Source: a virus. From it: a DNA stretch of 64,000 nt. The translations under genes and the position numbers were made by a program. The DNA lies in IMG/VR virus record IMGVR_UViG_3300005096_000005, positions 106,139 through 170,138 of that record, one strand, 5' to 3'. How positions within the stretch are numbered: position 1 is the stretch's first letter; each line of letters starts with the position of its first letter. The notes under the pieces are model-generated. The model made no database searches. It was given only the letters and a program-made list of their open reading frames with translations, and was not told where the DNA came from. Positions 11,517-64,000 of the stretch are shown here, in pieces.

Positions 11517-14500
11517 TTATCCTTGCGGTAGTGACAGGGACACCACTGTCGTGATCTTTCGGAGTTCGAGCCATACCACGAGCTCGAGCTCGATCCTCAG
11601 TGCGCCGATTATCTGCATGTCCCTGGTTGACAGAATGGTGAAGTTATAATCGCTGAGGACCCCCGCATCGACCATTGAGCGAAGGAATTCATCCACTTCC
11701 GTGTTGAGCGCCATTCGCTGCGGGATTGAGTTAGGCTGTCCGAGGAACGGGTTAGAAACCCTGCGCACGCCTGCCATAGCAGAGTGTACGACACGAACTG
11801 TGGACAGCCTGGTGTAGTCGGACAACCGTCCCGGCTTATTGGGCAGATCTCCGGCCGCGGTAATGCCGTCCGTAACATAGGCCACGTTATTGAACTGATA
11901 CAGCGTAACGTAACGGAAGCCCGTGAGGGCGTCAAGCTGCGCATTGCTGTAGTTATATCCAAGCGTGCCAATGTTAAGGATCGGTTTATGAGTCGTAGCA
12001 GCCTCTGCAGGCAGGGTGGAGGTAAGGGCAGCGTACACGACCTCAAGGGTCGAAGGCTGGCCTGTCGTTGCCGACAGAATCTCCGGACCTGCACAAACCG
12101 AGAGGTAACGTCCGATATCTTCCACTCTTCCATCGATTGGATTCGTGGTTCTGAAGCCGTTGTACATCGGAGTTACGAAATCGCCCACAGTCTTTGTAAG
12201 ACGGGTCACGCGAGACTGCACTCCACGCATGGAGGTGTCCGTCGCGGGGGACATAGAGATGACTCCAATACGCTCCTGCCCGTTCAATGATGTCTGGTAA
12301 CAATGTTCGGCCAGTATCTGACCAAAGTTAGTTACCGTGTCATTGCCGTTCGGATCGTTCGGATCAGCCCTCAGAGGCTTTCCGTTCGAGTCAACTATGA
12401 CTATACCGCGAGCCCCATTGTACCAGAATTTGCGGTCACGGCCAAAGTACTTCTTGCGTGACTCCGCATCCAGGTACATGTCTACAAGAACTATGATGTC
12501 GATAGGTTGGTTTTCCAGCAGTTGAAGCAGTCCGGTATCATACTGTGTGCCGAGCAGCTTCTGCGCATAGTAGCCTGGGTCCTTGCCCACACCATCATCG
12601 CCCCCAATCAGATAAGCGGGGGCAACATCTGTGTTGTCGAGCAGGTTGTGCGGCTTCTCATACTGCGGGAAGTTCGCGACAGGGTGGTCGGAGTCCGCAA
12701 CAAAGCGAGCCTCTACAACCACATTATCACGATGAGAGTTGATACCCACGGTCACGTCCTGATAGGACAGTGGCGTTGGGCTGGCGCTGAGGGCGACATC
12801 GAACTCAGAGGGGAATCCCTTGCCTGCGGGTTTCGATACACGCATCGTCATCTGGTCCGTCACCAAACTCCCCGCCAGGTCGATGGTTACACCAACGCCT
12901 GTAGTTGAGGAGGCTCCGTCCCATACGCCATTGCCGTATACGCTTCCAGGGTAGATAGCCCGCAGATAGAGGGCGACATCGGTGTAATACCAGTACTCAC
13001 CCGCCTGAAGGGAATTGCCGGAGTTGAGTGTAAAGACAGCGTCTTCATGGTCACTCTTCATGACAGTCCCCACAACAGGTGCCTGGCCGCCAGCCCCGCG
13101 TTTCATGAGAATGGCTTCACCATTGTCGTCCGCCTTAATGTAAGGAATTCGCAGCGACTCACCCGATGCCAGTGCTTCGTCCACAATGATAGAACGTCCG
13201 AATATTCCAACAGGTGATCCTTGCAGATAAGGATAGCGATATCCTCCCTCTACAATGTCGGGATTTTCGATGTCCTTGACGCGCACCTGCGCAAGCGCCG
13301 TTCCTGCTGTGCCCTGTATTACTTCTATGCTGACGGTCTCACCCGTGGGCAGTCCTTCCGGGTCCATAAGCTCAATCTCTGTAGTGCTATCCTGAATGTA
13401 AGGAAGCGTCCAGAGATTCTCGAGCTGACCGTACATAGTTGTCTGCTCTTGAAGAGCTGTGTTGATCGTGTTTGCTCCTGCAGCTCCGCCAGTGGAATCC
13501 TGGTACATTGTACCATACAGACGGAACTCCATGTCTGCTGCAAACATCACTTCCGCCGTGGGAATCCTGATCTTGCCACCGCTGGGCAACGCTCCTGTCC
13601 CATCGGGAACAGCATCGTATACAAAGCCGTCGGCTCCTGCATACACGTCGATAGAGGACACGAACGCCTTGACGTCATCGTAGAACGTAGCCGCAACCTG
13701 AATGTTCAGGCCCGGATCGTTCGAGATGTCAAAGTAGCCTGCCGCGATGTAGATGGCAGATTCTTGGGCGTCATAGTAGAACAGGTCATCCTGAGTCTCG
13801 GTCGGTACCAGCGTGGAACGCTGCAGCTGTACAGTAGCGGCCGTTGTCGTCAGGTCTACCTTGAGGTTTCCATATTGTGTCGTTCCCACCGCCGGTCCGC
13901 CGATATCCTTGTTGCCAAGGGCGGCGTTGTCGTTGGTAAACGGCACGTGATCCGGGTCGCCCACATTGACATCGTCCGGATCGAACAGTGTCATTAGCGG
14001 GTTGTAGTCCGGATCCCCCGAATCCATACTTCCGATAAACTGAATCTTGACCGGAACAAGCTCTCCGAGCTGGATCAGATCGGCCGGGTTCGGGACATTT
14101 GACGTATCTGCGTCCGTCGGATTCCACGCCTTAACGCCTGTCGTATCGTCGGTGTTCTCCGAAAGACTCATGGAGTTACCGAGGTTACTTCCGCTCATTC
14201 CCGAGGCTTTGGCTTCTACAATGACATACTCCTGGATGTTCCCCAGCCCGTCGTCTACACCTTCGCGATGAGCTTCGACATACGGGTTGATACCTGCGTC
14301 ATTGTTGATCGCGCTTGCCAGGTTCACGGCTGTGGCTGTAAGGTCGCCAGAAACAATGTTCCAGTTAAACCCTCCACCGCCGATCTCTCCGATGAAGCTG
14401 GCTGCGTAATCTGTTCCGCCATCTTCGATAGCCACCGTCAAGAGCGGCTGATTGTCAAGACCATCATCAAGGAACTGTTGGCCTGTGACGTCAAACGCGG

Positions 14501-24672: not shown

Positions 24673-26421
24673 TTAAGCTGTGAGCTCAATCTCTACCAGC
24701 GCGACAACGTCGCTCGGCGAAGAACCCACAAGGTTTGTCACGTAAACTGAGAGAAGATCTCCTGCCGCAAACGTATTGTTAGCGAAGGAGGCGCCATCGT
24801 CTTCTCCACCCGCCGCACCGCCAGTGAGGTTCACATCCACAGTCGCATCCAGCACAGCTCCGTTTTTATGAACCTCAAAATCTACCGAGGTTCCCGGCGC
24901 CGTTCCACACTGAACTGACATCCCCGTTACCTTGCCAGCCCTTATCGCTCGATAAGTTGACACAGAGCCGAAGATCCCGTTCACGCTTTTGAGATACGTG
25001 TCACCCGGCACAGTACTGCGACGGCCAAATGTCAAGATCAGTTTCTGGCCATTGCTTGGGGCACGATCGCAACGCAAAACACCTGCCGTATGCTTGATCG
25101 TGTCATCGTCAGTGTCCACTCCAGTGCCGTCGGTTGTTACAGTTACCGGAGCAACTGAAGTGTCAGTTCCAGAATACGCTTTGACCTTAAGATTCTCAGA
25201 ACCGTCATCCTCAAGACCGTCCCCGGCCACGTCGGAGGCATCAAAATTCAAGTTTCCTGACGCATCCTGCTGAAGACCGTCACCTGCTACGGCGGGCGCA
25301 AGCTTCGCTCCTGTAACTCCGTCATCTTTAAGCTGTATCTGGTTACTTGCATTGACCTCGAGAGTGCTGTCGTCCGTTACGGCTTCCAGTTCTCCAGAAG
25401 TCCCATTAACACGCAGGCCGCCATACTGATCTGCAGCTGTCGAATTAGTCTTCGGTGTCACCGCTATGTCGTCTGCCTGGAAATCAATTCCACCACGTTT
25501 TTCTATGACTCCAGAACCAACGTGCAGGATATTCCCGTTCTTGGTCATACCTACGCCAGCTGTAATTTGTCCTGCCCCACTGAACTGGACGAAGGAGAGT
25601 GCTGTGGTTCCTATGATGATGTCGTCATTGGATGTAAGTACCCACCCGGAATCTGCATTCTCTGCGCCTTCCGCGACAAACAAAAAGGCTCCTGCCGTGA
25701 CATCCGCGTCTTCATCGAAGTCTGCGGTCCGTGTCATCTGAACCCCGGACCCCTGGAAGGTATAGATACCATTCTCTTCGGGGGACGATGCCTGATTCTT
25801 CACGAGAACCCTGTCGCCAATATTGAGCGTGATTCCGTCAATGACCGACGTTCCCGGGTTGTTCAGATCCATGTCGGCTTCTGTGTTGGTCGTGGCGACG
25901 CGGACAGATTCCTTCGGATCAAGCCCCTGAGCCACAGAATCCACATAACCGCGATTGACCAGATCAGTGGTGCTAAACGATGTTGCAGATGAAGATATCT
26001 TCCCCGCACCCATCGCCAGATTGCCGCTGGCGTCCGTCTTAAGGACCTGTTCCGTTCCTGCGGGTGCGGCAGAGATGTTGGTTAAAGCGGCCAGAGCATC
26101 AAGCTTCCCGCCTCCGTCGACCCCCTCATGATTGTGTTCGGAATTGGTCTGATCTGTAATCTGCTGCTGTGTGTAAGTACCGAATGCTGCGACCGAAGTA
26201 ATATCCTTCGTCCCGCTCGGCGTCTCGACCACCAGCACGTTATCCGTAGACAGTACCAGATCGCCCCTTTGAAGAGCATCCCCTATCTCGGCATCTGTGA
26301 AGCTGAGGGTCAATTCGAGCTCTCCGCCTCCCGCAGCAATGGGAGCGGCGAACCCTAACTTTGAAACATCCCACGTATTCGACGCGTGGTCGTTTCGCAA
26401 CTTCCTGAGTCTTGCTGACAT
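24673..26421 (-). CDS. Head/tail fibre-like decoration protein (582 aa)
   Basis: VNRGYVDSVAQGLDPKESVRVATT...GDRVLVKNQ...ENGIY...FVQFSGAGQITAG module; AGDGL repeats; C-terminal jelly-roll-like domain. Confidence 0.75.
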   Translation of the reverse strand: MSARLRKLRNDHASNTWDVSKLGFAAPIAAGGGELELTLSFTDAEIGDALQRGDLVLSTDNVLVVETPSGTKDITSVAAFGTYTQQQITDQTNSEHNHEGVDGGGKLDALAALTNISAAPAGTEQVLKTDASGNLAMGAGKISSSATSFSTTDLVNRGYVDSVAQGLDPKESVRVATTNTEADMDLNNPGTSVIDGITLNIGDRVLVKNQASSPEENGIYTFQGSGVQMTRTADFDEDADVTAGAFLFVAEGAENADSGWVLTSNDDIIIGTTALSFVQFSGAGQITAGVGMTKNGNILHVGSGVIEKRGGIDFQADDIAVTPKTNSTAADQYGGLRVNGTSGELEAVTDDSTLEVNASNQIQLKDDGVTGAKLAPAVAGDGLQQDASGNLNFDASDVAGDGLEDDGSENLKVKAYSGTDTSVAPVTVTTDGTGVDTDDDTIKHTAGVLRCDRAPSNGQKLILTFGRRSTVPGDTYLKSVNGIFGSVSTYRAIRAGKVTGMSVQCGTAPGTSVDFEVHKNGAVLDATVDVNLTGGAAGGEDDGASFANNTFAAGDLLSVYVTNLVGSSPSDVVALVEIELTA

Positions 26422-26466
26422 TGGTATGTCACCTCCGTTAAGATTGTTATAACAAACCGCCCCGCA

Positions 26467-51286: not shown

Positions 51287-52789
51287 TTAGACCCCTCCGG
51301 TAATAAGTCCACCAACGACAATACCGCGAATGTCCGCCATAACGGGATCGTTCGCGACTCTCTTAATGCTGTCCCGAGCCTGTCTTATTAAACCTTTCCT
51401 TCCCCCGGGAGTTTTCAAATCTTCCAGGTCAATCGTACTCGGCAACAACATCTCCTGCAACTGATCGGCCTTTGCCTCCAACTTCCACTTATCTATAAAG
51501 TGCCGGACTTTACGCCCCAACTTGCCGACATCTCCATCCCAATTATGGAAGATGTGGTCACGAGCCGTCTCAATCACTTTTCGTAATGACTCCTGTTCGC
51601 GCTGTCTATCCAGAAGGATGAGCCCAACCTGAGAAAGGTTGACGTCGTAGGATACTGCATGAAAGAACCCCTTCATTGCTGTATCGTTCTGACTGGTCAT
51701 ACCCTCCACAACTGCGTCGGTAAGAGCCTGAAGCAGCGGGTTGTTTACCTTCGCCCTGTCCAACTTCCGCACCACGTCGTCTCCGTCGATATCGTAGCGG
51801 GACGCCATGTGCTGAATGTTGTGCATCAGGCGCACTCCCTGTTTCGTCGCAAGTTTCGCGGCCTGCCACGCGATCAGTCTGCGCGCCGTTCGGCTCCTTC
51901 CCAGGACCTTCGCTATTGTATCCTGCATCCTCCTACTATTCAAGACAGCCTTATCTATTGCTGTAACAAAAGAAGCGAACGCCGTTGCCCTGGCGCTCGC
52001 TGGTATGTCTGCAAATGAACTGATAAGCTGAAAGATATGTTCTTCAGAACCATAACTGAGTACCGAGTCGACATGCGAAAGCGCGAACGCATTCTGCAGA
52101 TTCTCGATCTCGGCTTGAGCTGTATATCCGATAATGCTCCCATAAGCCCCTTCAACATTCCGTCTGAACTCCCGTTCGTACTGGAGTTCCGTAATACTGT
52201 AGTCCAACCGCTGCACTTCCTGAAGGTCGAAGTCACTCGTGTTCAATAAAGCCTCAACCTTCTTTTGAAGGCCAGCCTGCTGGAGCTCTAAGCTCGGGGC
52301 TTTGCTTGGTTCTTTTATCCGGACCTTTTGTGTGGCTATCAGTTGAAACTCCTCTGAAAGCCTTGCGTATCGCTCCAGTACCGTCTGGTCTCCTGTGCGA
52401 TCGAACTCGTCCTTGGCTTCTTTTACTTGGAATGAGAGGTCGCGCAGTTTTTGCTCGACATTCTCATACGCAGATACCGTCTTCTCTGTGTACTCGTCTT
52501 CGTCTACTGTAACGGGTACAATCCGGTCATCTGCTACCGCGTCGACTATCTCACTCCAGGACTGTGCCGGAGAAGTGCCGTAAAAGGCGAGTCGACGATT
52601 CGTTTCATCTTCAAGGTCCAGCTCTTTAAGTCGATTATACACTCGTTCCTGAACGTTTGCAAGCCTTATTAGAGAAGTATAGACTCCATCTCTAATCTCA
52701 GATAAAGTGTTTTCCTTCTCTCCGAAGTTCCCAAAACGCCGTCCTCTTAACGCGACTGGTTGCTCAGAAAAGTTTATTCGTGTTGTCAT
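51287..52789 (-). CDS. Hypothetical alpha-helical/coiled-coil protein (~500 aa)
   Basis: Start MTTRINF overlaps the TerL stop (ATGA); lies between TerL and portal. Confidence 0.75.
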   Translation of the reverse strand: MTTRINFSEQPVALRGRRFGNFGEKENTLSEIRDGVYTSLIRLANVQERVYNRLKELDLEDETNRRLAFYGTSPAQSWSEIVDAVADDRIVPVTVDEDEYTEKTVSAYENVEQKLRDLSFQVKEAKDEFDRTGDQTVLERYARLSEEFQLIATQKVRIKEPSKAPSLELQQAGLQKKVEALLNTSDFDLQEVQRLDYSITELQYEREFRRNVEGAYGSIIGYTAQAEIENLQNAFALSHVDSVLSYGSEEHIFQLISSFADIPASARATAFASFVTAIDKAVLNSRRMQDTIAKVLGRSRTARRLIAWQAAKLATKQGVRLMHNIQHMASRYDIDGDDVVRKLDRAKVNNPLLQALTDAVVEGMTSQNDTAMKGFFHAVSYDVNLSQVGLILLDRQREQESLRKVIETARDHIFHNWDGDVGKLGRKVRHFIDKWKLEAKADQLQEMLLPSTIDLEDLKTPGGRKGLIRQARDSIKRVANDPVMADIRGIVVGGLITGGV

Positions 52790-55700
52790 CTCCCGCGGTA
52801 CCCCCTGCCCCACACCGAGCGATTTGAGGCCCCAGGCATTCTACGATTGGTACCAATACGACCCCTCCTCCCTCTTGGCGCTACAGGCTTTCGTCCTGAA
52901 GGCGGAATGTCGTATATTTGGAGAACCCCACCATTCATACGGGGATCCTCTTTTGGTTTCTTTGCGTCAGTATAGGGGTCTATGTAATACTTACCGTGTA
53001 CTCCGGGTCCTTGTCTTCCGTGACGTACAACTGCCCCCTTTGAACCTCTCGGGAAGATCAGCTCGTTGGAGAAGTTGGATATAAGTCCGAACAGGGCAAA
53101 CAACAAAGCGTCCAGTGCGTGTTCGTTCTTCATGGTGTACCTGGGCTGCCCTGTAGTAGCGCTCCGGGCTACAACCTGGTAATTCTCCATCTGCTCCTTA
53201 AGCTTCATATCTTTTTTGGAAGCGACCAGCGCACACTGCTCGGTCAGGCGCACGCCAAGCTGCACGAGATATGGTTTGATTGGTACCTTTGTGAACTCGC
53301 CCCGCTTGTAGGGGTCTGGTATCTCGACATGCTCTCCATAGAAGATTGGAACAACACGTTTCCCGAGACCTGTTTCGGGATGCTCCTTACCGTACTTATG
53401 TAAGTTCTCCACGACCATCTCTCCGTAGCCGCGGTCTACATATATGTATGAGGTCTTCCACTTCCGGTCCAACTCTATGATCTTATCGACAAGGGCGTGA
53501 AGGGTTAGTTCTCCTTTCCGCCCTTTTGGCATTGTCACTCTTTGGAGAATGAACGCTTTGTTGTACTTATCGTTCCACTCCACGATTACGATCTCAGGAC
53601 CGGTAGCGTACTTGTCCACGTCCACGCCCATAACGCGCTTTCTCGTTTTCGGATTAAAACGTGCCGGATAAGTATAGTTGGAGAAGCTCTTGAGCCCGGC
53701 TGCTTCTATAACTTGCTGATCCCCAAACATAATGTCCAGGTACCACTTCTGGAACACGCCAGCAAGTTCTTCGGGGAACTCGGCGAGCACCTCGGTAATA
53801 ATACCGTACTCATCGAACCCTGCCAGAATCTCCTCTCCAAACGTGACCGGATTGCCGTACACGTCGTAGTCCATAATGTTGTCCCAGTATGGAACTACAG
53901 AGGACGGGTAGTGGTGCACCATCCATCTCTTGCGAGGGTCCGTGTTCCACTTGTACCACATCCCGCGAGCGCCAGACGGGGTCGACGATGCGATAATTCT
54001 GATATGAGGGTTACCGATACGGATACCCATAATAGTCCGTAAGTCGTTGTCGTCGAGATAATCGGCCTCGTCAAGGATAATGAAGTCGGAATCTTTACCA
54101 CGAGAGGCACCACCCCCTGCGCCGGACTTTGTGCCTGCGGTCATTCCTGTGATAGTGGAGCCATTATTGAACCGCACTCTGTACGGCGGGGATTTTGTAA
54201 GCCGCCCAACCACCGACGCCTGAAGCGTTTCACTATTCTCGATCATGAAGTTAATGCCGGGACGATCCCAAAATATCTTCTTGACCTGTTCGTCATACGG
54301 AGTGAGGATAAGCACTTTCGAGTTTGGATGGGTAAAGGCGTGATGTAGCGCCTTAATCATAATGCTCGTAGTGTTATGAACCACAACATCGTTTGCAACA
54401 AAGTTGTATGTACCGTCTACATCAGAGAGGTCGTACGTCTGGTGTCTTCCGAGAGATTCAATGGAAACCACGGGATCCCAAATCACTTCAGAATCCGCAA
54501 GACCCTCCAGATAACTGTCTCCGCCAAGGTTCTTCGCATACCTCTTTAGTTTCTTCCTTGAAGGGGAGTCTCCTAAACGCAACCTCTTGTTATCGTATGT
54601 CGAGCCTCCAACTACAGCCCTTTTGGTTAGGCCCTTCATACGCCTTCGAACGTCAACATACGACATTACCCCGGCGGGGATTGCGTCGATCTTCCTGTTG
54701 CCTGTTATAGCCCTGCTGGCAAGCGCCTTTACTACTTCAAGAACGGCCTCCTCTTTTCCAAAGATACCGATCTTCCTGGCGAACATTTTGATATCCGCCG
54801 CCGCAGAGATAATAACCTGGTACGCAATTCGAATCCCACCATTATACTTAACACGTTTGCGCGACAGACTTGCGATGATACCAAACTTCAGCAGGAGCGA
54901 ATGGACATCGTGCGCCAGTTCTCCCGACACAGAACAGAACCCGATCTCCGCTCGTCCCTTATATTCTTCGCTCACACAAGCCCAACCGTCCGTCGCATAA
55001 AGCCGGTTAAGAAACAACGCCACCTGAGCCTCTGTTCCTCGAAAGATGTCCTTTGGAACCTTTTTGGTGTGAGCATTATGCTCTGCGATATCAGCATCCT
55101 TAAGAAACCGGTTAATTTGATGATTGTTCCTGCCGGAGACAATTGACTTGAACCAATAGTCACACTTCGACTTCGAAACCCGTTTCAACTGCGCCCCAAG
55201 CTCTCTGGCAATGACGCGCATCTCCTCGATATGTCGTTCATTGATAGAAGACCACCGGTGGCTTGTTGTACATGTTGTTCCACCGTCTCCAATCATGTAC
55301 CCCAGGAACTTGAGCTCCTGATCGGAATAGGACGAACCTATACCAAACCGTGTTTGTGACGGTACCGCAATCCTGTCGCCCAGCTGCACATCTTTGACAG
55401 GTATCCATTCTGGACGCTCGGTTCTGAATACAAGGACCGGATGCTCAGCGGTAAGGTCGACCTCACGCCCTGTGCGGGTTGTCAGTCGAAACACTTCCTT
55501 AACGCCATTATCGAGAACGTCGTATCCGTCTTTGGTTGTAAACTTGAAGTTGTTCTGAAGAGACGTAATTCCAGGACGGTCCTGCGACTTCATCTTTCGT
55601 AATTCGGCAACCGTTACATAAGCGCCATCATCAGTACTGACACGAACCCATCCCGGCAAACATTTTCCTGTCTGGCGTCCTAGCCTCCATACCTGATAAC

Positions 55701-56049
55701 GAGTAGTATCCTGGAGGAGCAATTCCTGGTACCAGCGCGGGTGGTAGTCAACGACCTGCTTTGACTCCGGATCGATGACTTTGATCTCTGTCTCCGCCCA
55801 CTTGCACGGATCGGCGAGAAGCATGACTTTCTTGCGCTCTTCGTCGGTCGGATAAGCATCGGCGAGCTCTGGATCGTTATCCCAGTCCGGCTCGAAAAAC
55901 GACCTGTCTCTTTCGTCAAACCAGTCCGGCTTTGGCATGTGCCTGATCTGGTCGGGCACCATCTCCGGGGCAAAGATATCCACATCCGAATGTTGCGGTT
56001 TAGTGAATAGATCTACAACCGGTTCCTGTGGAAGTCTCGGTAGAGACAT
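52786..56049 (-). CDS. terL: Terminase large subunit with intein (657 aa after splicing)
   Basis: Walker A GRQTGK/T split by the intein; Walker B IILDEAD; motif III SSTP; RNase H-like GVDVD, YVDRG, HALDAL. Confidence 0.95.
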   Translation of the reverse strand: MSLPRLPQEPVVDLFTKPQHSDVDIFAPEMVPDQIRHMPKPDWFDERDRSFFEPDWDNDPELADAYPTDEERKKVMLLADPCKWAETEIKVIDPESKQVVDYHPRWYQELLLQDTTRYQVWRLGRQTGKCLPGWVRVSTDDGAYVTVAELRKMKSQDRPGITSLQNNFKFTTKDGYDVLDNGVKEVFRLTTRTGREVDLTAEHPVLVFRTERPEWIPVKDVQLGDRIAVPSQTRFGIGSSYSDQELKFLGYMIGDGGTTCTTSHRWSSINERHIEEMRVIARELGAQLKRVSKSKCDYWFKSIVSGRNNHQINRFLKDADIAEHNAHTKKVPKDIFRGTEAQVALFLNRLYATDGWACVSEEYKGRAEIGFCSVSGELAHDVHSLLLKFGIIASLSRKRVKYNGGIRIAYQVIISAAADIKMFARKIGIFGKEEAVLEVVKALASRAITGNRKIDAIPAGVMSYVDVRRRMKGLTKRAVVGGSTYDNKRLRLGDSPSRKKLKRYAKNLGGDSYLEGLADSEVIWDPVVSIESLGRHQTYDLSDVDGTYNFVANDVVVHNTTSIMIKALHHAFTHPNSKVLILTPYDEQVKKIFWDRPGINFMIENSETLQASVVGRLTKSPPYRVRFNNGSTITGMTAGTKSGAGGGASRGKDSDFIILDEADYLDDNDLRTIMGIRIGNPHIRIIASSTPSGARGMWYKWNTDPRKRWMVHHYPSSVVPYWDNIMDYDVYGNPVTFGEEILAGFDEYGIITEVLAEFPEELAGVFQKWYLDIMFGDQQVIEAAGLKSFSNYTYPARFNPKTRKRVMGVDVDKYATGPEIVIVEWNDKYNKAFILQRVTMPKGRKGELTLHALVDKIIELDRKWKTSYIYVDRGYGEMVVENLHKYGKEHPETGLGKRVVPIFYGEHVEIPDPYKRGEFTKVPIKPYLVQLGVRLTEQCALVASKKDMKLKEQMENYQVVARSATTGQPRYTMKNEHALDALLFALFGLISNFSNELIFPRGSKGAVVRHGRQGPGVHGKYYIDPYTDAKKPKEDPRMNGGVLQIYDIPPSGRKPVAPRGRRGRIGTNRRMPGASNRSVWGRGYRGR
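54373..55662 (-). mobile_element. Intein (430 aa) with LAGLIDADG homing endonuclease
   Basis: Starts CLPGWVRV; block B LTAEHPVL; FLGYMIGDGG and FLNRLYATDGW endonuclease motifs; ends NFVANDVVVHN before Thr+1. Confidence 0.95.
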
Positions 56050-58652: not shown

Positions 58653-58680
58653 ACTCACATAACATGCCAACGAGGTGATT

Positions 58681-59595
58681 ATGACCAACGAATCGTACAA
58701 ACACCACGAAGTACAAAAAGGAGAGACGCTCTCCCAGATTCTCAAAAAGTACTACGGAGGTTATTCAAAACCTCTTGCTGAAAGAGTACTCGCAGGTCAC
58801 AACATTGTCAACCCCAACGCCATACCTGCCGGCCTCGTACTGAACCTGCAGGGCTCATGGAGTCATCCCAAACCTGAGATGGAAGTTTACGACCATCCCA
58901 ACAAAGCGATTACCACCCTTACAAACAAAAGCGAGCTCAGCGACACACCCGCCGCAGAACCAAAAAAGCTGGAGAAGGACCTTCCCCGGGGCGAATACTG
59001 GGCGCAACTCTATAAGAAGGACCTTATCGTCCTCCACTTCACTGCGGGCTATACGTGGCGGAGCGCGTACAACACGTTCTTGAGGCCCGGGCGCGTCGCC
59101 ACACCATATATCGTGGATGTGACAGGACCTCTTTTTGTGGTCCAACTGTTCGACCCCAAATTCTGGTCGTACCATCTTGGCATCAAGAAACCCTACTCCA
59201 ACAACTGGAACAACGATAAACGAAGTATCGGTATCGAGATCGTAAACATCGGTCCGGTCTGGAAGAAGGGTATACACTACAAGGATTATACAGGAAAGAT
59301 ATGGCCTGAGGGCGACGTAGTCGTGGCCCCAAATCGGGACGCCGACGGTGGTGTACGTTTCCCCGAAGAACAGATCTATGCCGTATGTGACCTGATAAAC
59401 TGGCTATGCCAGGAATTCGATATCCCCCGGCAGGTACCGGCGGATAAGATGTCCATGCAGCTCCCTGAGGTTGGGGAGTTTAAAGGGATCGCCACCCATC
59501 AACACTTTCGCAAAGACAAGTATGATATGGGAAGCGCCTTCCCCTGGGACATCGTAACCGATCGGTGCGGTCTGGAGGAAGTCGACCTAACATAA
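58681..59595 (+). CDS. LysM plus N-acetylmuramoyl-L-alanine amidase (Amidase_2), endolysin candidate
   Basis: HEVQKGETLSQI...NPNAIPAGLVL (LysM); IVLHFTAG, YHLG, SIGIEIVN, THQHFRKDKYD (Zn ligands and catalytic Glu). GTG 58675 is an alternative start. Confidence 0.9.
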   Translation: MTNESYKHHEVQKGETLSQILKKYYGGYSKPLAERVLAGHNIVNPNAIPAGLVLNLQGSWSHPKPEMEVYDHPNKAITTLTNKSELSDTPAAEPKKLEKDLPRGEYWAQLYKKDLIVLHFTAGYTWRSAYNTFLRPGRVATPYIVDVTGPLFVVQLFDPKFWSYHLGIKKPYSNNWNNDKRSIGIEIVNIGPVWKKGIHYKDYTGKIWPEGDVVVAPNRDADGGVRFPEEQIYAVCDLINWLCQEFDIPRQVPADKMSMQLPEVGEFKGIATHQHFRKDKYDMGSAFPWDIVTDRCGLEEVDLT

Positions 59596-59605
59596 GGAGG
59601 AAGAC

Positions 59606-60673
59606 ATGGCAAATCCAACACTCGACTTTTCATCCCTGCCTAACTGGCCGACCGGCCGCGTCGGAGAACCCTATTCGGTCACAGTGCCGCTCGACCTGGA
59701 TGGTGAGGTGTTCCAATCCATCGAGACCGTATTCCCCACACCGAACTGGATCAACACCCAGCTCGCCGGGAGCGACATACAGCTCTCGGGGGTACCAAAC
59801 CTGATCGGGACATTTACTATCGGTCTCAGGTTGTACACAGACGTACACCCCAACGGTTACGTTCTAAATGTACCAGCCGGAGGACCCGACCTCACTGTCA
59901 TGTCCGCCAACGTCGACGCCATCGACGAGGAGCAACAGTACTTCGGCTACAAGGACATGGTTCTCATGCCCGGCGAAGAACTGTCAGTTTCCAAGAACGG
60001 CGTCCCGGACCCGGACATGACTTTCACCAACGCCGACCCGGTGGAATCTGTCAGGTTCATAGTCAACGCCGCAGGCACCAAGGTCGGAGAGCCACCGAGC
60101 ATCAACACTACACCACCCGCGGCACAGCTCGGATTCGGCATCGACACTTTCAGCTACAATGCTGACGCCGACGGCGCAACACCACTGTCATGGTTCGTAG
60201 TCTCCGGACCTCCGGGGTTCAGCATCAACACCGTGTCCGGTCTATGCAGCTGGGTTCCCACGGGAGAGGGCCTGTTTAACGCCCGCATCCGCGCAGAGAA
60301 CCTGGCAGGCCACGACGAACAGGATATTCCGCTGGACGTTATCATCGTTGCTCCAACCTGGCTTACTGATCCATACGCCGACGCTCTTGTGCTTCCGGGA
60401 ATGACGACCCCGGTCGATCCGGCCCCGCTGGCACCCGGCGAATCCTACCGCTACGATATGGAAGTCTCAGGGTCACCAACCATCACCATGACCATCACTG
60501 ACTACGGTACTGTCGACCCTGGCGACGTGAACCTCGTACCACTATCGCCAACCCGCTGGAGACTCGAAGTTGTGAACAACATGGCGGACGGAAACGTCCA
60601 TACACTGATTCTGCGCGCCGAGAATACCGGAGGTTCCGCAGACCAGAGTATCAATATAGAACTGCAAATGTAA
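59606..60673 (+). CDS. Multi-Ig (putative Ig/He_PIG, cadherin-like) protein (355 aa)
   Basis: LPNWPTGRVGEPYSV...LSGVP; SGPPGFSINTVSGLCSWVP; SD AAGGAGG. Confidence 0.75.
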   Translation: MANPTLDFSSLPNWPTGRVGEPYSVTVPLDLDGEVFQSIETVFPTPNWINTQLAGSDIQLSGVPNLIGTFTIGLRLYTDVHPNGYVLNVPAGGPDLTVMSANVDAIDEEQQYFGYKDMVLMPGEELSVSKNGVPDPDMTFTNADPVESVRFIVNAAGTKVGEPPSINTTPPAAQLGFGIDTFSYNADADGATPLSWFVVSGPPGFSINTVSGLCSWVPTGEGLFNARIRAENLAGHDEQDIPLDVIIVAPTWLTDPYADALVLPGMTTPVDPAPLAPGESYRYDMEVSGSPTITMTITDYGTVDPGDVNLVPLSPTRWRLEVVNNMADGNVHTLILRAENTGGSADQSINIELQM

Positions 60674-60702
60674 TTGACACACCCCCTGTGTGCCGTTATA
60701 AT
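60674..60702 (+). promoter_or_regulatory. Perfect consensus sigma70 promoter
   Basis: TTGACA (60674-60679), 17-nt spacer, TATAAT (60697-60702). Confidence 0.85.
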
Positions 60703-60706
60703 CCGG

Positions 60707-60809
60707 GTGTCTTGTTTCACTGCGTGTCCACCGGACACAGAGTGACATACCAATCAAGGGCAATAAAGACGCCCGCCCACAGGCCGTCCTTATGGCGGCC
60801 TCTTTTTAT
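60707..60809 (+). ncRNA. Candidate ~100-nt structured small RNA
   Basis: Bounded by a consensus promoter and an intrinsic terminator. Internal hairpin TCACT-gc-GTGTCC-acc-GGACAC-ag-AGTGA. 5' (GGGT)GTCTT pairs with AAGAC(GCCC). No credible ORF. Confidence 0.6.
60781..60809 (+). terminator. Intrinsic terminator (+ strand)
   Basis: AGGCCGTC-cttat-GGCGGCCT then CTTTTTAT. Confidence 0.75.
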
Positions 60810-60814
60810 GGCAC

Positions 60815-60847
60815 AAAAAAGCTCCCCCGCCCCTGCGAGCGGAGGAG
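60815..60847 (-). terminator. Intrinsic terminator (- strand)
   Basis: CTCCTCCGCTC-GCAG-GGGCGGGGGAG then C-TTTTTT, downstream of the stop at 60883. Confidence 0.8.
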
Positions 60848-60882: not shown

Positions 60883-61800
60883 TTATCCTACTTGTGTCAG
60901 GAAGCACATAAGGTTGTATCCACAAGCGTGGCAATGCTTCTGATTAGTGGCGCACTTCGTGCCACACTCAGGACAGAACACCTTATCCCTGGTCGTTACT
61001 ACATTCTTCGCCGCGTGGAGCCTGATACGAATCTGGGCGGCCCTGTTGTCTTCCACTCTCATGCAAGACACCCGGAAACCGGTGCGACTTATGTCCCCCT
61101 GGGTCGTAGCTCCGGTCGGCCGCGTCCTGTTAACGTGCTGGCCGGTCGAGCGTTTCTTACTGAAGGTTCCAACAAGGCCCATCGCATCGTCCGAGAACAC
61201 AGTACCATCCATCTTTTCGCCTTTGAGAGATTCTCCGGCCGTGGTCGCTCCCGAAGGTGCGCATGACTCTTCGCACGCAGCCTCAGCCTCAGCCACAGGC
61301 GCCGCCGAAAAGTCGCCCATTGACCAATCTATCGTCGGAGGTCCGCCAATCTCGCCGGGAGCGCCAAACTTGCCAGACCTCATACTGTCGAGGATAGCGT
61401 CGCGAGTAATCACTTTCGATTCTTCTCTTTCGAAGTGGAAGTTGACAATGATAAGTCCATTGTCTCTGGAGTCGGGGTCCGGTGTAGCGTTCTGGCCTTC
61501 TCTGGAATTGAGAGCTACGAACTTCAGGGCTCTGCCCTTTGTCAGATCTCCGTCCAGCATGAACCGGTCAAGGGTGGTTGTGCCATGGGCTGGAATTACC
61601 AGTCCGCCCTGCAGTGCGTCCATACCGTCGATAGTGATGTACGCGGCGGCCCTTCTGTCGTGTTTGTTTTTGAGGAAGATTGTGTACTCTGTGTCGTGGG
61701 GGAGATAGACGACGCGCTCGCCGTTCTCCACGAACTCTCTGACTGTCTTACCGTCTTTTGTCTGAATAGATGCTACGAATCCTTCTGCATGTGCCATCAT
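60883..61800 (-). CDS. Uncharacterised beta-sandwich protein with C-terminal double zinc ribbon (305 aa)
   Basis: EYTIFLKN...YITIDG...LDRF...LKFV; CPECG...CHACG; SD AAGGAG. Confidence 0.8.
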   Translation of the reverse strand: MMAHAEGFVASIQTKDGKTVREFVENGERVVYLPHDTEYTIFLKNKHDRRAAAYITIDGMDALQGGLVIPAHGTTTLDRFMLDGDLTKGRALKFVALNSREGQNATPDPDSRDNGLIIVNFHFEREESKVITRDAILDSMRSGKFGAPGEIGGPPTIDWSMGDFSAAPVAEAEAACEESCAPSGATTAGESLKGEKMDGTVFSDDAMGLVGTFSKKRSTGQHVNRTRPTGATTQGDISRTGFRVSCMRVEDNRAAQIRIRLHAAKNVVTTRDKVFCPECGTKCATNQKHCHACGYNLMCFLTQVG

Positions 61801-61808
61801 GATGATGT

Positions 61809-61854
61809 CTCCTTTTCCCGCCGCCTGAGTACCGGCGCTTCGTTTTAACTCAGG
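61809..61854 (-). promoter_or_regulatory. Candidate 5'-UTR stem/pseudoknot abutting the SD
   Basis: CCTGAGT/ACTCAGG stem; loop CGCCG is complementary to the downstream CGGCG. Confidence 0.4.
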
Positions 61855-61872
61855 TAGGTTATTGTCATGGGC

Positions 61873-62058
61873 TTAATCGATCGAAAGCGCTTCTTCCTTT
61901 TTACCTCCCTTCTCTCTCATTAGTTTGTGGTACTTCTCGCGTTCGGTCGTGTTACCCGGTGACGCTTCTGCAAACTCGAACCTTTCGTTGCCGAAGTCCT
62001 GGTCGGCCCCGGAAAGCATATTCTTCATCTGGTTAGCCACGTTGCTCAACGGATCCAT
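61873..62058 (-). CDS. Hypothetical protein (61 aa)
   Basis: SD AGGAG. Confidence 0.6.
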   Translation of the reverse strand: MDPLSNVANQMKNMLSGADQDFGNERFEFAEASPGNTTEREKYHKLMREKGGKKEEALSID

Positions 62059-62089
62059 GTTTACTCCTGCCTTTCAACCGCGTTCGGAT

Positions 62090-62389
62090 TTACTTCTCTA
62101 CCGCGACATCTTTCCATATCTCTTTTTCCGTATCATACTGCTGCAGGGATACGACCGCGGATATTCTGTCTTCGTTGCCGTCTTCCCACAGGATGTCGGT
62201 ATGGTTAGCAAAAAGCAATTCCCAGGCTTTCTCCAGTTCTCCGGTATACGGCTCCCCTATCCTGGCGCGTCCCCTGCCTTTTTTCTCGTGATACTCTGCC
62301 GCGAGCTTCAAAGCATCCAGAGCATCGCCGTCGAAGTCGTCCGGCAGTGCGAATGCTGCTATTATCATCGCGACTTTATTTGACTTCAT
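62090..62389 (-). CDS. Hypothetical protein (99 aa)
   Basis: SD GAGG; protein-like composition. Confidence 0.7.
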   Translation of the reverse strand: MKSNKVAMIIAAFALPDDFDGDALDALKLAAEYHEKKGRGRARIGEPYTGELEKAWELLFANHTDILWEDGNEDRISAVVSLQQYDTEKEIWKDVAVEK

Positions 62390-62398
62390 AGTGCCCTC

Positions 62399-62563
62399 TC
62401 AGTCGTAGATTACCGGACTTTTCTTCTCACCGGCGGGTTGCTCTTTCAGTTCCTCCACAAACCTTTTTTCCATCGCGCTGTGGCCTCCGCCGCCTTTCTC
62501 ATTCGTCGAGCTCGAAGCCCTGTCCAGGTCCTGCGGTTTTCCCTTTTCATTTAGGTCCTGCAT
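62399..62563 (-). CDS. Hypothetical protein (54 aa), not in ORF track
   Basis: MQDLNEKGKPQDLDRASS...SPVIYD; strong SD GAGGAGG. Confidence 0.55.
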   Translation of the reverse strand: MQDLNEKGKPQDLDRASSSTNEKGGGGHSAMEKRFVEELKEQPAGEKKSPVIYD

Positions 62564-62712
62564 AATTCCTCCTCATTCCTCCTCAGGTATCTTTCTCCGG
62601 TATCACTGTTCGCCCTAATGGGATCGATTCCGGTTTTTTTCGTCAGCTCCAAAAGCGCGAGGCGTATATTGCAGCAACCGATAATGTGTCGAGCTTCCTC
62701 CGGGGCGATCAG
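62551..62712 (-). CDS. Candidate CTG-initiated small protein (53 aa)
   Basis: GAGGAG, 8 nt, then CTG overlapping the nuclease TGA (CTGA); fills the gap to the next gene. Confidence 0.3.
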   Translation of the reverse strand: MIAPEEARHIIGCCNIRLALLELTKKTGIDPIRANSDTGERYLRRNEEELCRT

Positions 62713-63104
62713 CCCCTGTACTCCTCTGCAAGTCCAGCGGCCAGCAGGTCTGCGTTCAGGACCCTCGTCTCGTGCCCACCCGGCAGCCCCGGCACATCGT
62801 TCCGCCAATCGATGGCGGCTATCTGTCCCAGGTAGCGTCCGTACTTGCCCTGCTTGTCCTTGAAAGTGGTTACGATTATGCTCAGGCCGTCGGTCTTTGC
62901 TTTTTCGAACCATGTTTTCACGAACTCCTTTGCCTCGACAGCTTTCGCTCTGGACTCGGCGGTGCCACCGCGAAGCTCCGGCGTGTTGATGTTTGAAAGA
63001 CGTATTCTCTGGAGGGTGTAGGTTCTAAATCCGAGGTCTACCATCAGGTCGACAGTGTCGCCGTCAACAACTTTTACCACGTCGCTTACGCTGTACTGAT
63101 ACAT
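62709..63104 (-). CDS. Thermonuclease (staphylococcal nuclease-like)
   Basis: KVVDGDTV...RIRLSNINTPE...GKYGRYLG...NADLLAAGLA; no signal peptide. Confidence 0.9.
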   Translation of the reverse strand: MYQYSVSDVVKVVDGDTVDLMVDLGFRTYTLQRIRLSNINTPELRGGTAESRAKAVEAKEFVKTWFEKAKTDGLSIIVTTFKDKQGKYGRYLGQIAAIDWRNDVPGLPGGHETRVLNADLLAAGLAEEYRG

Positions 63105-63228
63105 CTTTTACTCTCCATTCCTCGTAGCCGCTCATCAGCCATTCCCAGAATCCCGGAGGCGCTTCTCTATCGGCCGATGCTTTCAGGTCTTTCAGTGTGA
63201 CTGCGTCACGTTCGGGCTGTTTGCTCAC
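63064..63228 (-). CDS. Hypothetical protein (~54 aa)
   Basis: GTG after GGAGG; start uncertain (ORF track gives 63255). Confidence 0.4.
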   Translation of the reverse strand: MSKQPERDAVTLKDLKASADREAPPGFWEWLMSGYEEWRVKDVSVQRKRRGKSC

Positions 63229-63266
63229 TTGTCTTTGAAGCCTCCGTGTGCACACATCATACTCCG

Positions 63267-63653
63267 CTACCGGAGTGCTGTCAAGACTGTTTGCATAATC
63301 TTTCCAACGTCATACGGTTTTTTGAAGAAAGCGTGTCCCAATTGCTCCGCGGTATCGGCCCACTCGTCCCTGCCGGACACGAAGATTATGATCGGATCCA
63401 AACCCAGGGCGTGGATCTTGGTAGCGCACAGGAAGCCGTTCATCACCGGCATGTCCACATCCAGAATCACAACGTCAGGCTGGCTGGCATAGACCACCTC
63501 AGCGCCCTCACGCCCATCACAGGCCGTACCCACAACCCTGAATTCCTCCGTCAGGTTCAGCGTCTCAAGAAGAGACGTAATGAGCTCTGGCGTGTCATCG
63601 ACGATGACAACCCTTATCTCATCCTCTTTCTCCCGATCTCCTGAAAAGTTCAT
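63267..63653 (-). CDS. Stand-alone response-regulator receiver domain protein
   Basis: VVIVDD, VILDVDMPVMNG (phospho-Asp), IFVSG, KKPYD. Confidence 0.9.
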   Translation of the reverse strand: MNFSGDREKEDEIRVVIVDDTPELITSLLETLNLTEEFRVVGTACDGREGAEVVYASQPDVVILDVDMPVMNGFLCATKIHALGLDPIIIFVSGRDEWADTAEQLGHAFFKKPYDVGKIMQTVLTALR

Positions 63654-63693
63654 GTCTATCCCCTTTAGCTATGCGTTATACACATACACGTCC

Positions 63694-63722
63694 ATTGTAC
63701 CTTACGGCAGGATGCCTGGGAA
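63694..63722 (-). promoter_or_regulatory. Candidate sigma70-like promoter for accessory genes
   Basis: TTCCCA-17 nt-TACAAT, about 40 nt upstream of the receiver gene. Confidence 0.4.
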
Positions 63723-63726
63723 GCCT

Positions 63727-63833
63727 TATAGGGAAAAACTCGTGTGTAATATTATTCGGCCCCGGGCTCCGGCGCCCGCGAGGCCCTATAGGGAAAACAG
63801 GCGTGAATAATATTATTGCAGTAAAGCGGGCTC
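63727..63833. repeat. Two imperfect ~60-bp direct repeats
   Basis: TATAGGGAAAA at 63727 and 63787; TAATATTATT at 63747 and 63808; CGGGCTC at 63763 and 63827. Confidence 0.7.
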
Positions 63834-64000
63834 AAGGCATACCGGCTGGGTGGGGGTGGGTACCCCACCTTATCCCCGTTATATGTTCGAAGTCGAGTTC
63901 GGTGCCCACCGGGTCATTCCGCACTGGTTACTGGATGTATCGCTTCATAACAACATCAGCTCCATCACAATCACATTGTGGTTGTAGGTATGGGGCAAAA

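What the first reader, a model, noticed from the sequence alone, without database searches (positions are those of the whole stretch)
60674..60809. Stand-alone structured small RNA behind a perfect consensus promoter
Seen: an exact TTGACA-17-TATAAT is followed by ~100 nt with no credible ORF, then a terminator. A separate terminator insulates the opposite strand. The predicted fold has a closing helix (GGGUGUCUU 60705-60713 with AAGACGCCC 60766-60774, partial if the TSS is 60709), an internal-loop hairpin (60717-60745) and a single-stranded CAUACCAAUCAAGGGCAAU segment. It does not look like tRNA, SRP RNA or any ribozyme I recognise. Inference: an abundant immediate-early RNA, such as an anti-defence decoy (crRNA or antitoxin mimic), a protein sponge or a trans regulator (see the 13-nt match at 26420-26432).
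Basis: partly seen in the sequence, partly recalled or inferred. Interest (0 to 1): 0.75.

Follow-up and report, generated by a model that had tools for sequence, protein, structure and literature searches.

The report
Conserved orphan small RNA gene in phage
An uncultivated giant phage carries a roughly 97-base non-coding RNA gene with its own host-type promoter and terminator just after its lysis genes; three related phages keep it at the same spot, so it is probably real, but its function is unknown.

Summary
An exact TTGACA-17-TATAAT (60674-60702) is followed by about 97 nt with no conserved ORF and an intrinsic terminator (60781-60807). A second terminator (60847-60822, minus strand) closes the convergent gene. 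No Rfam, tRNA or tmRNA match.

Three related phage lineages from metagenomes keep a promoter, hairpin and terminator unit at the same syntenic spot, after the endolysin cassette. Against the closest relative, the transcribed stretch is 74% identical while four-fold degenerate sites in the adjacent gene are 41% identical. Both promoter hexamers are unchanged, but the spacer has diverged.

The internal-loop hairpin (60717-60745) recurs in the two alignable relatives. Its apex (GUCC/GGAC) and base (UCA/UGA) are invariant.

The "closing helix" comes from a window-specific insertion, lies mostly upstream of the start site, and is not conserved. The 13-nt match has the same sense as the mRNA, so it cannot pair, and is at chance level.

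Best reading: a stand-alone phage sRNA made by host sigma-70 polymerase. It probably acts in trans by base pairing, or binds a protein through the hairpin. No target, host or expression data could be obtained. It is a new, narrow family of a known kind.

The parts
60674..60679 (+). -35 hexamer TTGACA, directly after the TAA stop of the 355-aa gene
   Evidence: Identical in L010 and in L016/G001; TTGACT in L040.
60697..60702 (+). -10 hexamer TATAAT, 17-bp spacer
   Evidence: TATAAT in L010, TATACT in L016, GATAAT in L040. The spacer is only 9/17 identical between the window and L010.
60709..60807 (+). Predicted transcript of about 97-99 nt. The start at G60709 is inferred from the 7-nt distance to the -10 box; the end lies in the U-tract.
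   Evidence: No conserved ORF. 74% identical to L010, against 41% at four-fold degenerate sites of the adjacent gene.
60709..60720 (+). 5' segment GUCUUGUUUCAC. Positions 60709-60716 are unpaired; 60717-60720 form the first four positions of SL1.
   Evidence: Invariant between the window and L010. Only GUUUCA is shared with L016.
60717..60745 (+). SL1: a 13-position hairpin with a 2x2 internal loop and an ACC loop. Apex GUCC/GGAC and base UCA/UGA are invariant in three lineages.
   Evidence: 82% of cells are paired, against 26-44% when partners are slid. Two pairs change on both sides. G-U pairs in L016 fit the + strand only.
60743..60751 (+). Conserved UGACAUACC. UGA (60743-60745) closes SL1; CAUACC (60746-60751) is unpaired linker.
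   Evidence: Invariant between the window and L010. Not conserved in L016 or L040.
60758..60778 (+). SL2: GGGC paired with GCCC (60771-74 or 60775-78).
   Evidence: Equivalent GGG...CCC stems are present in L010 and L016.
60781..60807 (+). Intrinsic terminator: 8-bp stem, 5-nt loop, then a U5 tract
   Evidence: Terminators sit at the same relative place in L010, L016 and L040.
60822..60847 (-). Separate terminator of the convergent gene 60883-61800
   Evidence: 11 pairs, 8 of them G-C, then a T-run.
58675..60673 (+). Upstream lysis-side operon: LysM/Amidase_2 endolysin (58675-59595) and a 355-aa Ig-domain (He_PIG-like) protein (59606-60673). No terminator lies before the sRNA promoter, so operon read-through would share the sRNA 3' end.
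60883..61800 (-). Convergent 305-aa phage protein with a C-terminal zinc ribbon. Homologue present in L040.

Best explanation
This is an independent small non-coding RNA gene of a roughly 200-kb uncultivated myophage. Host sigma-70 RNA polymerase starts at about G60709 from a consensus promoter and stops at the intrinsic terminator, giving an RNA of about 97 nt. Its layout is a short 5' tail, the imperfect hairpin SL1, an unpaired linker, the small hairpin SL2, and the terminator hairpin with a U-tail. The unit is shown to be under purifying selection and to hold its position next to the lysis cassette in four phage lineages. The mechanism is inferred. It most likely acts in trans as a riboregulator, using the stretches that are unpaired and invariant between close relatives (GUCUUGUU at the 5' end, CAUACC in the linker) to pair with host or phage mRNAs. 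SL1 and the terminator would then provide stability or a protein handle. My confidence that it is a real stand-alone RNA gene is about 0.8. My confidence that base pairing is the mode of action is about 0.35-0.4.
For: The promoter matches 12/12, one of only two such matches in the genome. The other drives an ordinary SD-led 66-aa gene, so the phage does use this promoter class.

Relative L010/L011 (neighbouring protein 76% identical) keeps both hexamers exactly, while the spacer is only 9/17 identical. The transcribed region is 74% identical, against 41% at 152 four-fold degenerate sites and 50% at codon position 3.

Relative G001/L016 (TerL 71%, endolysin 48%) has TTGACA-18-TATACT, an alignable SL1, a GGG/CCC hairpin and a terminator directly after its endolysin gene.

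Relative L040 (TerL 67%, p355 32%, p305 31%) has the same gene order. In the same gap it has TTGACT-17-GATAAT, a 15-position imperfect hairpin, a 28-nt unpaired linker and a terminator.

In SL1, 8 pairs are invariant and 2 change on both sides. 82% of cells are paired, against 26-44% for slid partners. G-U pairs fit the + strand only.

There is no conserved ORF, no Rfam family, no tRNA or tmRNA, and no + strand gene downstream. This is the only strong promoter-to-terminator unit without an ORF in the genome.
Against: There are no expression data. No target was found. Complementarity to the phage genome is no better than for shuffled RNAs: the longest run is 15, against 14-24 for shuffles. Duplex energies with local translation start regions do not beat shuffles in any of three lineages.

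The candidate seed segments are conserved only between the two closest lineages. In L016 the predicted start leaves almost no 5' tail. L040 cannot be aligned at sequence level, so its homology rests on position and architecture only.

With only three alignable sequences, covariation is not statistically significant: 120 of 500 shuffles reach the observed score. The U-tail has only 5 U and no A/U-rich site precedes the terminator, so an Hfq-type module is not evident.
Confidence: 0.45

Rival explanations
1. Protein-binding or decoy RNA. SL1, with its invariant apex and base, would be the functional part. It would titrate or recruit a host or phage RNA-binding protein, for example a defence effector, Cas6-type nuclease, toxin or RNA chaperone. 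The rest would be scaffold.
For: The only sequence kept in all three alignable lineages is SL1: UCA...G(Y)GUCC, a 3-4-nt loop, GGAC...UGA. The unpaired segments diverge. No base-pairing target was found. A strong constitutive promoter fits a stoichiometric sponge.
Against: No partner is known. No RNA-binding protein gene is conserved next to the unit: p355 is an Ig-domain protein and is absent from G001, and p305 is absent from G001. L040's hairpin has a different apex, GCAG/CUGC. There is no similarity to Rfam CRISPR repeat families at E<=10. The SL1 motif is absent from 185,579 prokaryotic species genomes. The RNA contains no tandem repeats, unlike ToxI-type antitoxins.
Confidence: 0.2
2. 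Mainly a 3' end module of the lysis operon mRNA. The hairpins and terminator would stabilise or terminate the endolysin-p355 transcript, and the promoter would be secondary or would merely add extra copies of the 3'UTR.
For: No terminator separates p355 from the unit, so operon transcripts must run through it and share its 3' end. The unit follows the lysis cassette in all four lineages. The promoter spacer can pair with the SL1 3' arm in read-through RNA (pair I3).
Against: A pure 3'UTR does not explain near-perfect -35 and -10 hexamers at correct spacing in four lineages while the spacer drifts. A terminator alone would not need about 70 nt of conserved sequence upstream of it.
Confidence: 0.12
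3. An attenuated leader. The promoter and structured RNA would act like lambda pR'-tR' or HK022 put, and conditional read-through of the terminator would send antisense transcription into the convergent gene block (60883-64000, minus strand) to shut it down.
For: The layout of a constitutive promoter, a short structured RNA of two stem-loops and a terminator resembles pR'-6S/StxS (PMC7547250) and put (the put comparison is from my own knowledge).
Against: There is no + strand gene downstream. Two back-to-back terminators form a conserved convergent junction in the window, L010 and L040, which argues for insulation. No antiterminator was identified.
Confidence: 0.08
4. A DNA-level element, such as an operator palindrome, a transcription-activated origin or a packaging signal near the terminase genes, with the RNA as a by-product.
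For: SL1 is also a DNA palindrome placed at +9 to +37. Short inverted repeats lie in the promoter spacers of the window, L010 and L016. TerS lies 2.2 kb away.
Against: The G-U pairs in SL1 of L016 and L040 and in the window's terminator would be A-C mismatches in a DNA palindrome or on the other strand. The internal loop shifts position between lineages while the helix is kept, which is RNA-like behaviour. SL1 is single-copy in the genome.
Confidence: 0.05

Closest known systems
Lambdoid pR'-tR' short transcript (lambda 6S RNA; StxS of Shiga-toxin phages, PMC7547250)
   Same: A constitutively active sigma-70 promoter is followed at once by an intrinsic terminator, giving a short phage RNA made by host polymerase near the lysis genes. 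StxS shows that such an RNA can act as a trans regulator.
   Different: Those units sit upstream of the late operon and serve Q antitermination. Here nothing is encoded downstream on the same strand, and a convergent terminator follows. There is no sequence or Rfam similarity.
Phage-encoded trans-acting sRNAs, e.g. lambda LPR1/PreS (bioRxiv 10.1101/2024.10.31.621285); ncRNAs reported in jumbo phage PA5oct (PMC7318152)
   Same: Small phage RNAs of about 100 nt that are not translated. PreS regulates essential host genes by base pairing.
   Different: No target, chaperone or host is known here. The family has no detectable relatives outside four metagenomic phage lineages.
Lambda OOP RNA (from my own knowledge)
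   Same: A short RNA with its own promoter and terminator at a convergent junction.
   Different: OOP overlaps, and is antisense to, the 3' end of cII. This RNA (60709-60807) overlaps neither the convergent gene (60883-61800) nor its terminator (60822-60847).
RNA anti-CRISPRs (Racr, solitary repeat units; PMC10651486)
   Same: A promoter-driven small hairpin RNA in a phage genome, with no ORF.
   Different: Racrs are defined by close similarity to a host CRISPR repeat. No CRISPR-repeat family matches at E<=10, and the SL1 motif is not found in 185,579 species genomes. The host is unknown, so this is not a full test.
HK022 put RNA (from my own knowledge)
   Same: Two stem-loops with internal irregularities lie directly downstream of a strong phage promoter.
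   Different: put acts in cis to carry polymerase through terminators into downstream genes. Here there are no downstream genes.

Membership tests
Any curated RNA family (Rfam 15) | Covariance-model score at or above the family's gathering threshold | tested here: not met
   No hits in the whole window or in L010, L016 and L040. In E-value mode the best hits are 12.5-17.5 bits against thresholds of 41-80.
Stand-alone bacterial/phage sRNA gene | Own promoter | tested here: met
   12/12 consensus. Hexamers are kept in L010 (12/12), L016 (11/12) and L040 (10/12) while the spacer diverges. This is sequence evidence only.
Stand-alone bacterial/phage sRNA gene | Own intrinsic terminator, and no same-strand gene downstream | tested here: met
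Stand-alone bacterial/phage sRNA gene | No conserved reading frame | tested here: met
   Frames lack an SD, run through the terminator, and differ between lineages. A 5-6-nt indel separates the window from L010.
Stand-alone bacterial/phage sRNA gene | Sequence constraint above the neutral level | tested here: met
   74% identity, against 41% at four-fold degenerate sites.
Stand-alone bacterial/phage sRNA gene | A discrete transcript is observed | not testable with these tools
   No sequencing run was listed for this DNA.
Base-pairing (trans-acting) sRNA | Conserved complementarity to a target mRNA | tested here: inconclusive
   Nothing above shuffled controls in the phage genome or at local start regions. 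Host mRNAs could not be tested because the host is unknown.
Hfq-dependent sRNA | Terminator with a long U-tail plus an adjacent A/U-rich single-stranded site, in a host that has Hfq | tested here: inconclusive
   The U-tract has 5 U in the window, L010 and L040. The sequence before the terminator is G/C-rich. The host is unknown.
pR'-tR' type attenuated leader | Same-strand late genes downstream that are reached by antitermination | tested here: not met
   Only minus-strand genes follow, and a convergent terminator lies 20 nt away.
cis-antisense RNA (OOP-like) | Overlap with a gene or transcript on the opposite strand | tested here: not met
   The RNA ends at about 60807. The opposite terminator spans 60822-60847 and the gene 60883-61800.
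RNA anti-CRISPR (solitary repeat unit) | Close similarity to a CRISPR repeat of the host | tested here: inconclusive
   No Rfam CRISPR-DR hit at E<=10. The SL1 motif pattern is absent from GTDB species genomes. The pattern was exact and included flanks, and the host is unknown.
Type III antitoxin RNA (ToxI-like) | Tandem repeats upstream of a toxin gene on the same strand | tested here: not met
   No tandem repeat in 60674-60810. No same-strand gene downstream.
tRNA / tmRNA / tRNA-like | Cloverleaf detected by ARAGORN | tested here: not met
   No genes found in the window.
Y RNA (Ro60 partner) | A Ro60/TROVE protein encoded in the genome, and a terminal stem formed by the RNA's 5' and 3' ends | tested here: not met
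   The Pfam TROVE model finds nothing in the 170-kb record. The 5'/3' closing helix is not conserved.

The most novel reading that the evidence does not exclude
The invariant hairpin SL1 is a molecular mimic that an early, highly transcribed phage RNA uses to titrate a host immunity or RNA-processing protein. That would make this an RNA-based counter-defence of a type not yet described, in groundwater jumbo phages. L040's different hairpin would then reflect a different host target.
Probability: 0.12. Interest if true: 0.75.

Novelty: new member of a known kind. Interest (0 to 1): 0.4.

Why it matters
Phage-encoded small RNAs are known, but few have been characterised, and almost none come from uncultivated large phages. 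Here comparative sequence data alone show an orphan RNA gene under selection and driven by the host polymerase. That gives a concrete ~100-nt candidate for RNA-level control of the host, or for counter-defence, in a poorly known clade distantly related to the 0305phi8-36 jumbo-phage group. Its value is limited for now because the host is unknown, only four lineages carry it, and no target or partner can be named.

Tried and rejected
- **13-nt match as a target site:** rejected. It has the same sense as the mRNA of gene 24673-26421. About 0.45 such matches are expected per genome. A second 13-mer hit lies inside an unrelated gene. The homologous start region in G001 does not resemble G001's RNA.
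- **Antisense targets in the phage genome and at nearby start regions:** not above shuffled controls. A first full-genome duplex scan timed out.
- **Small peptide:** rejected.
- **Rfam, tRNA and tmRNA:** nothing.
- **Search for more homologues:**
  - Exact and gapped DNA patterns in IMG/VR, metagenomes and GTDB genomes gave only L011/L015 and G001, plus three chance hits inside genes.
  - Protein-anchored searches with p355, p305, TerS and TerL gave only L010/L011, G001 and L040.
  - Endolysin homologues at about 50% identity sit in unrelated contexts without the RNA.
  - There is no match in the GenBank phage collection.
- **Expression:** no sequencing run, RNA or DNA, was listed for this DNA.
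no TROVE hit.
- **Second copy of SL1, or other orphan promoter-terminator units of this strength in the genome:** none.
- **Earlier scan notes by sequence:** none.

Full report
**What is in the sequence**

The window is the last 64 kb of a 170-kb IMG/VR virus record estimated to be 78% complete. It is a myophage with an intein-split large terminase, a portal, a major head protein and sheath-like proteins. Its terminase is only 26-39% identical to those of Moorella, Bacillus 0305phi8-36-like and Acinetobacter ME3 jumbo phages.

All genes from 1 to 58443 are on the minus strand. A short plus-strand unit follows, made of a LysM/Amidase_2 endolysin (58675-59595) and a 355-aa Ig-domain protein (59606-60673). 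Directly after the TAA stop of that protein comes TTGACA-17-TATAAT at 60674-60702, a 12/12 match. A terminator follows at 60781-60801 with a U5 tract. A separate minus-strand terminator at 60847-60822 closes the convergent 305-aa zinc-ribbon gene 60883-61800.

A 12/12 promoter occurs only twice in the 170-kb record. The other one drives an ordinary SD-led 66-aa gene, so this promoter class is in real use by the phage. A genome-wide scan for strong promoters followed by a terminator within 260 nt finds no other unit of this quality without an ORF. The SL1 core is single-copy.

**The RNA**

With the start placed 7 nt after the -10 box, at G60709, the RNA is about 97 nt long. Its MFE fold (-36 kcal/mol, z -3.97) has these parts:
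- an 8-nt 5' tail;
- hairpin SL1 at 60717-60745, with a 5-bp outer stem, a 2x2 internal loop, a 6-bp inner stem and an ACC loop;
- an unpaired linker;
- a 4-bp GGGC/GCCC hairpin, SL2;
- the terminator.

There is no Rfam hit at gathering thresholds. In E-value mode the best hits score about 14 bits against thresholds of 56-70. There is no tRNA or tmRNA and no tandem repeat. The frames inside the RNA lack an SD, run through the terminator, and are not conserved.

**Relatives**

The family is rare. I found three other lineages.

1. L010/L011 are 1.4-kb metagenome contigs whose p355 homologue is 76% identical. Both promoter hexamers are identical, while the 17-nt spacer is 9/17 identical. GUGUCUUGUUUCAC and UGACAUACC are invariant. 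SL1, the GGGC/GCCC hairpin and the terminator are all present. The transcribed region is 74% identical. In the adjacent gene, 152 four-fold degenerate sites are 41% identical and codon position 3 is 50% identical. The non-coding stretch is therefore under purifying selection, and the promoter hexamers specifically so.

2. G001 (L016, L018-L020) is a 54-kb contig with TerL 71%, endolysin 48% and TerS 40% identical. It has no p355 homologue. Directly after the endolysin stop it carries TTGACA-18-TATACT, an alignable SL1, an extra hairpin, a GGGUU/GGCCC hairpin and a terminator.

3. L040 is a 21.6-kb aquifer scaffold with TerL 67%, TerS 46%, p355 32% and p305 31% identical. Its gene order is the same: TerS, endolysin, p355, a gap, then the convergent p305. 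The gap holds TTGACT-17-GATAAT, which is the only promoter-like site in 700 nt (shuffle mean 0.1). It also holds a 15-position imperfect hairpin with a 3-nt loop, a 28-nt C/U-rich unpaired linker and a terminator. Its sequence cannot be aligned with the window, so homology here rests on position and architecture.

None of the relatives matches an Rfam family.

**Structure evidence**

On the three alignable sequences, SL1 has 13 pairs. Eight are invariant and two change on both sides (U-A to C-G; G.G to C-G or G-U). 82% of cells are paired, against 26-44% when partners are slid by 1-3 columns. With three sequences the shuffle control is not significant (120 of 500).

The internal loop moves along the helix between lineages, while the apex (GUCC/GGAC) and base (UCA/UGA) stay fixed. 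The G-U pairs in G001 and L040 would be A-C on the other strand or in a DNA cruciform, so the fold belongs to the plus-strand RNA.

The closing helix is produced by a window-specific 5-6-nt insertion (AAGAC...) that L010 lacks. It is not a conserved feature.

**Function**

I could not find a target.
- The 13-nt match at 26420-26432 is the reverse complement on the plus strand. The RNA is therefore identical to the SD-to-AUG spacer of the minus-strand gene 24673-26421 and cannot pair with it.
- About 0.45 such 13-mers are expected per genome and two were seen. The other lies inside an unrelated gene.
- The homologous gene's start region in G001 shares only GGUGA with G001's RNA.
- Complementary runs against both strands of the genome reach at most 15, against 14-24 for shuffled queries.
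- Duplex energies with local start regions do not beat shuffles in any of three lineages.

The host is unknown. Relatives come from groundwater and aquifer metagenomes, so host mRNAs could not be tested. No sequencing run was listed for this DNA.

The conservation pattern is mixed. The unpaired segments are invariant between the two closest lineages, which fits seed regions. Across all three alignable lineages only SL1 is kept, which fits a protein handle. I therefore rank a trans-acting base-pairing sRNA first and a protein-binding or decoy RNA second.

The remaining readings are less likely, for these reasons:
- A pure 3'UTR or terminator role does not explain the promoter conservation.
- An attenuated-leader role has no downstream genes to serve, and the junction carries two terminators.
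- A DNA-level role conflicts with the G-U pairs.

**Comparison with known systems**

The layout most resembles the lambdoid pR'-tR' short transcript, whose StxS form acts as an sRNA (PMC7547250). It also resembles other phage sRNAs such as lambda PreS (bioRxiv 10.1101/2024.10.31.621285). It fails the defining feature of the pR' leader (late genes downstream), of OOP-type antisense RNAs (overlap with a gene), of ToxI (tandem repeats) and of Y RNAs (no TROVE hit; no conserved terminal stem). For RNA anti-CRISPRs (PMC10651486) the test is incomplete. There is no CRISPR-repeat family hit and the SL1 motif is absent from 185,579 species genomes, but the host is unknown.

**Verdict**

This is a real, conserved orphan small RNA gene of a new and narrow family. 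It belongs to a known kind, the phage-encoded sRNA. Its mechanism is open.

Noticed in passing
L016:5558-5655 (+ strand of the locus; contig IMGVR_UViG_3300025012_000112): In relative G001 a second possible small unit lies convergent to the sRNA. It has TTCTCA-17-TATAAT (10/12) followed about 35 nt later by a 13-pair terminator (5619-5647), and then another terminator (5522-5539) for the neighbouring gene. The window has no equivalent.
   Followed up: partly
window 60678-60692; L010 1258-1269; window 63256-63284 (-); G000:C1:14584-14591: Several near-consensus promoters of this phage group carry a short G/C-rich inverted repeat inside the -35/-10 spacer: CACAC-N5-GTGTG, GCCCC-AT-GGGGC, CTCCG-GTAG-CGGAG and GTTGCAAC. 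The sequences differ from promoter to promoter, and L040 lacks one. These could be operators, or structures formed in read-through RNA.
   Followed up: partly
window 52786-56049 (-): The large terminase gene is interrupted by an intein with a LAGLIDADG homing endonuclease (Intein_splicing 2.6e-17). Relative L040 also has an intein-bearing TerL of 1055 aa, while G001's TerL (632 aa) has none.
   Followed up: partly
window 63267-63653 (-): A stand-alone response-regulator receiver domain protein (128 aa, Response_reg 3.3e-18) is encoded in the phage's convergent gene block.
   Followed up: no
window 2-7102 (-) and 11517-17378 (-): There are two giant ORFs. One is over 2367 aa with a Cas4/PD-(D/E)XK-like nuclease domain near its C-terminus. 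The other is 1953 aa, and its last ~340 residues match a tail-sheath family (5.8e-80).
   Followed up: no
window 60803-60821; L010 about 1377-1395; L040 5897-5875 (-): The spacer between the two convergent terminators (T5-ATGGCAC-A6) is nearly the same in the window, L010 and even the distant L040, although the RNA body of L040 is not alignable.
   Followed up: no
L019 and L042 (both from ENA sample ERZ27254732): The G001-type and L040-type phages occur in the same metagenome sample. L034 and L041 carry 'groundwater metagenome' (PRJNA268031) in their record names, which points to an aquifer habitat for this phage group.
   Followed up: no
The Pfam TROVE model finds no match at E<=0.001 anywhere in the 170 kb.
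   Followed up: partly
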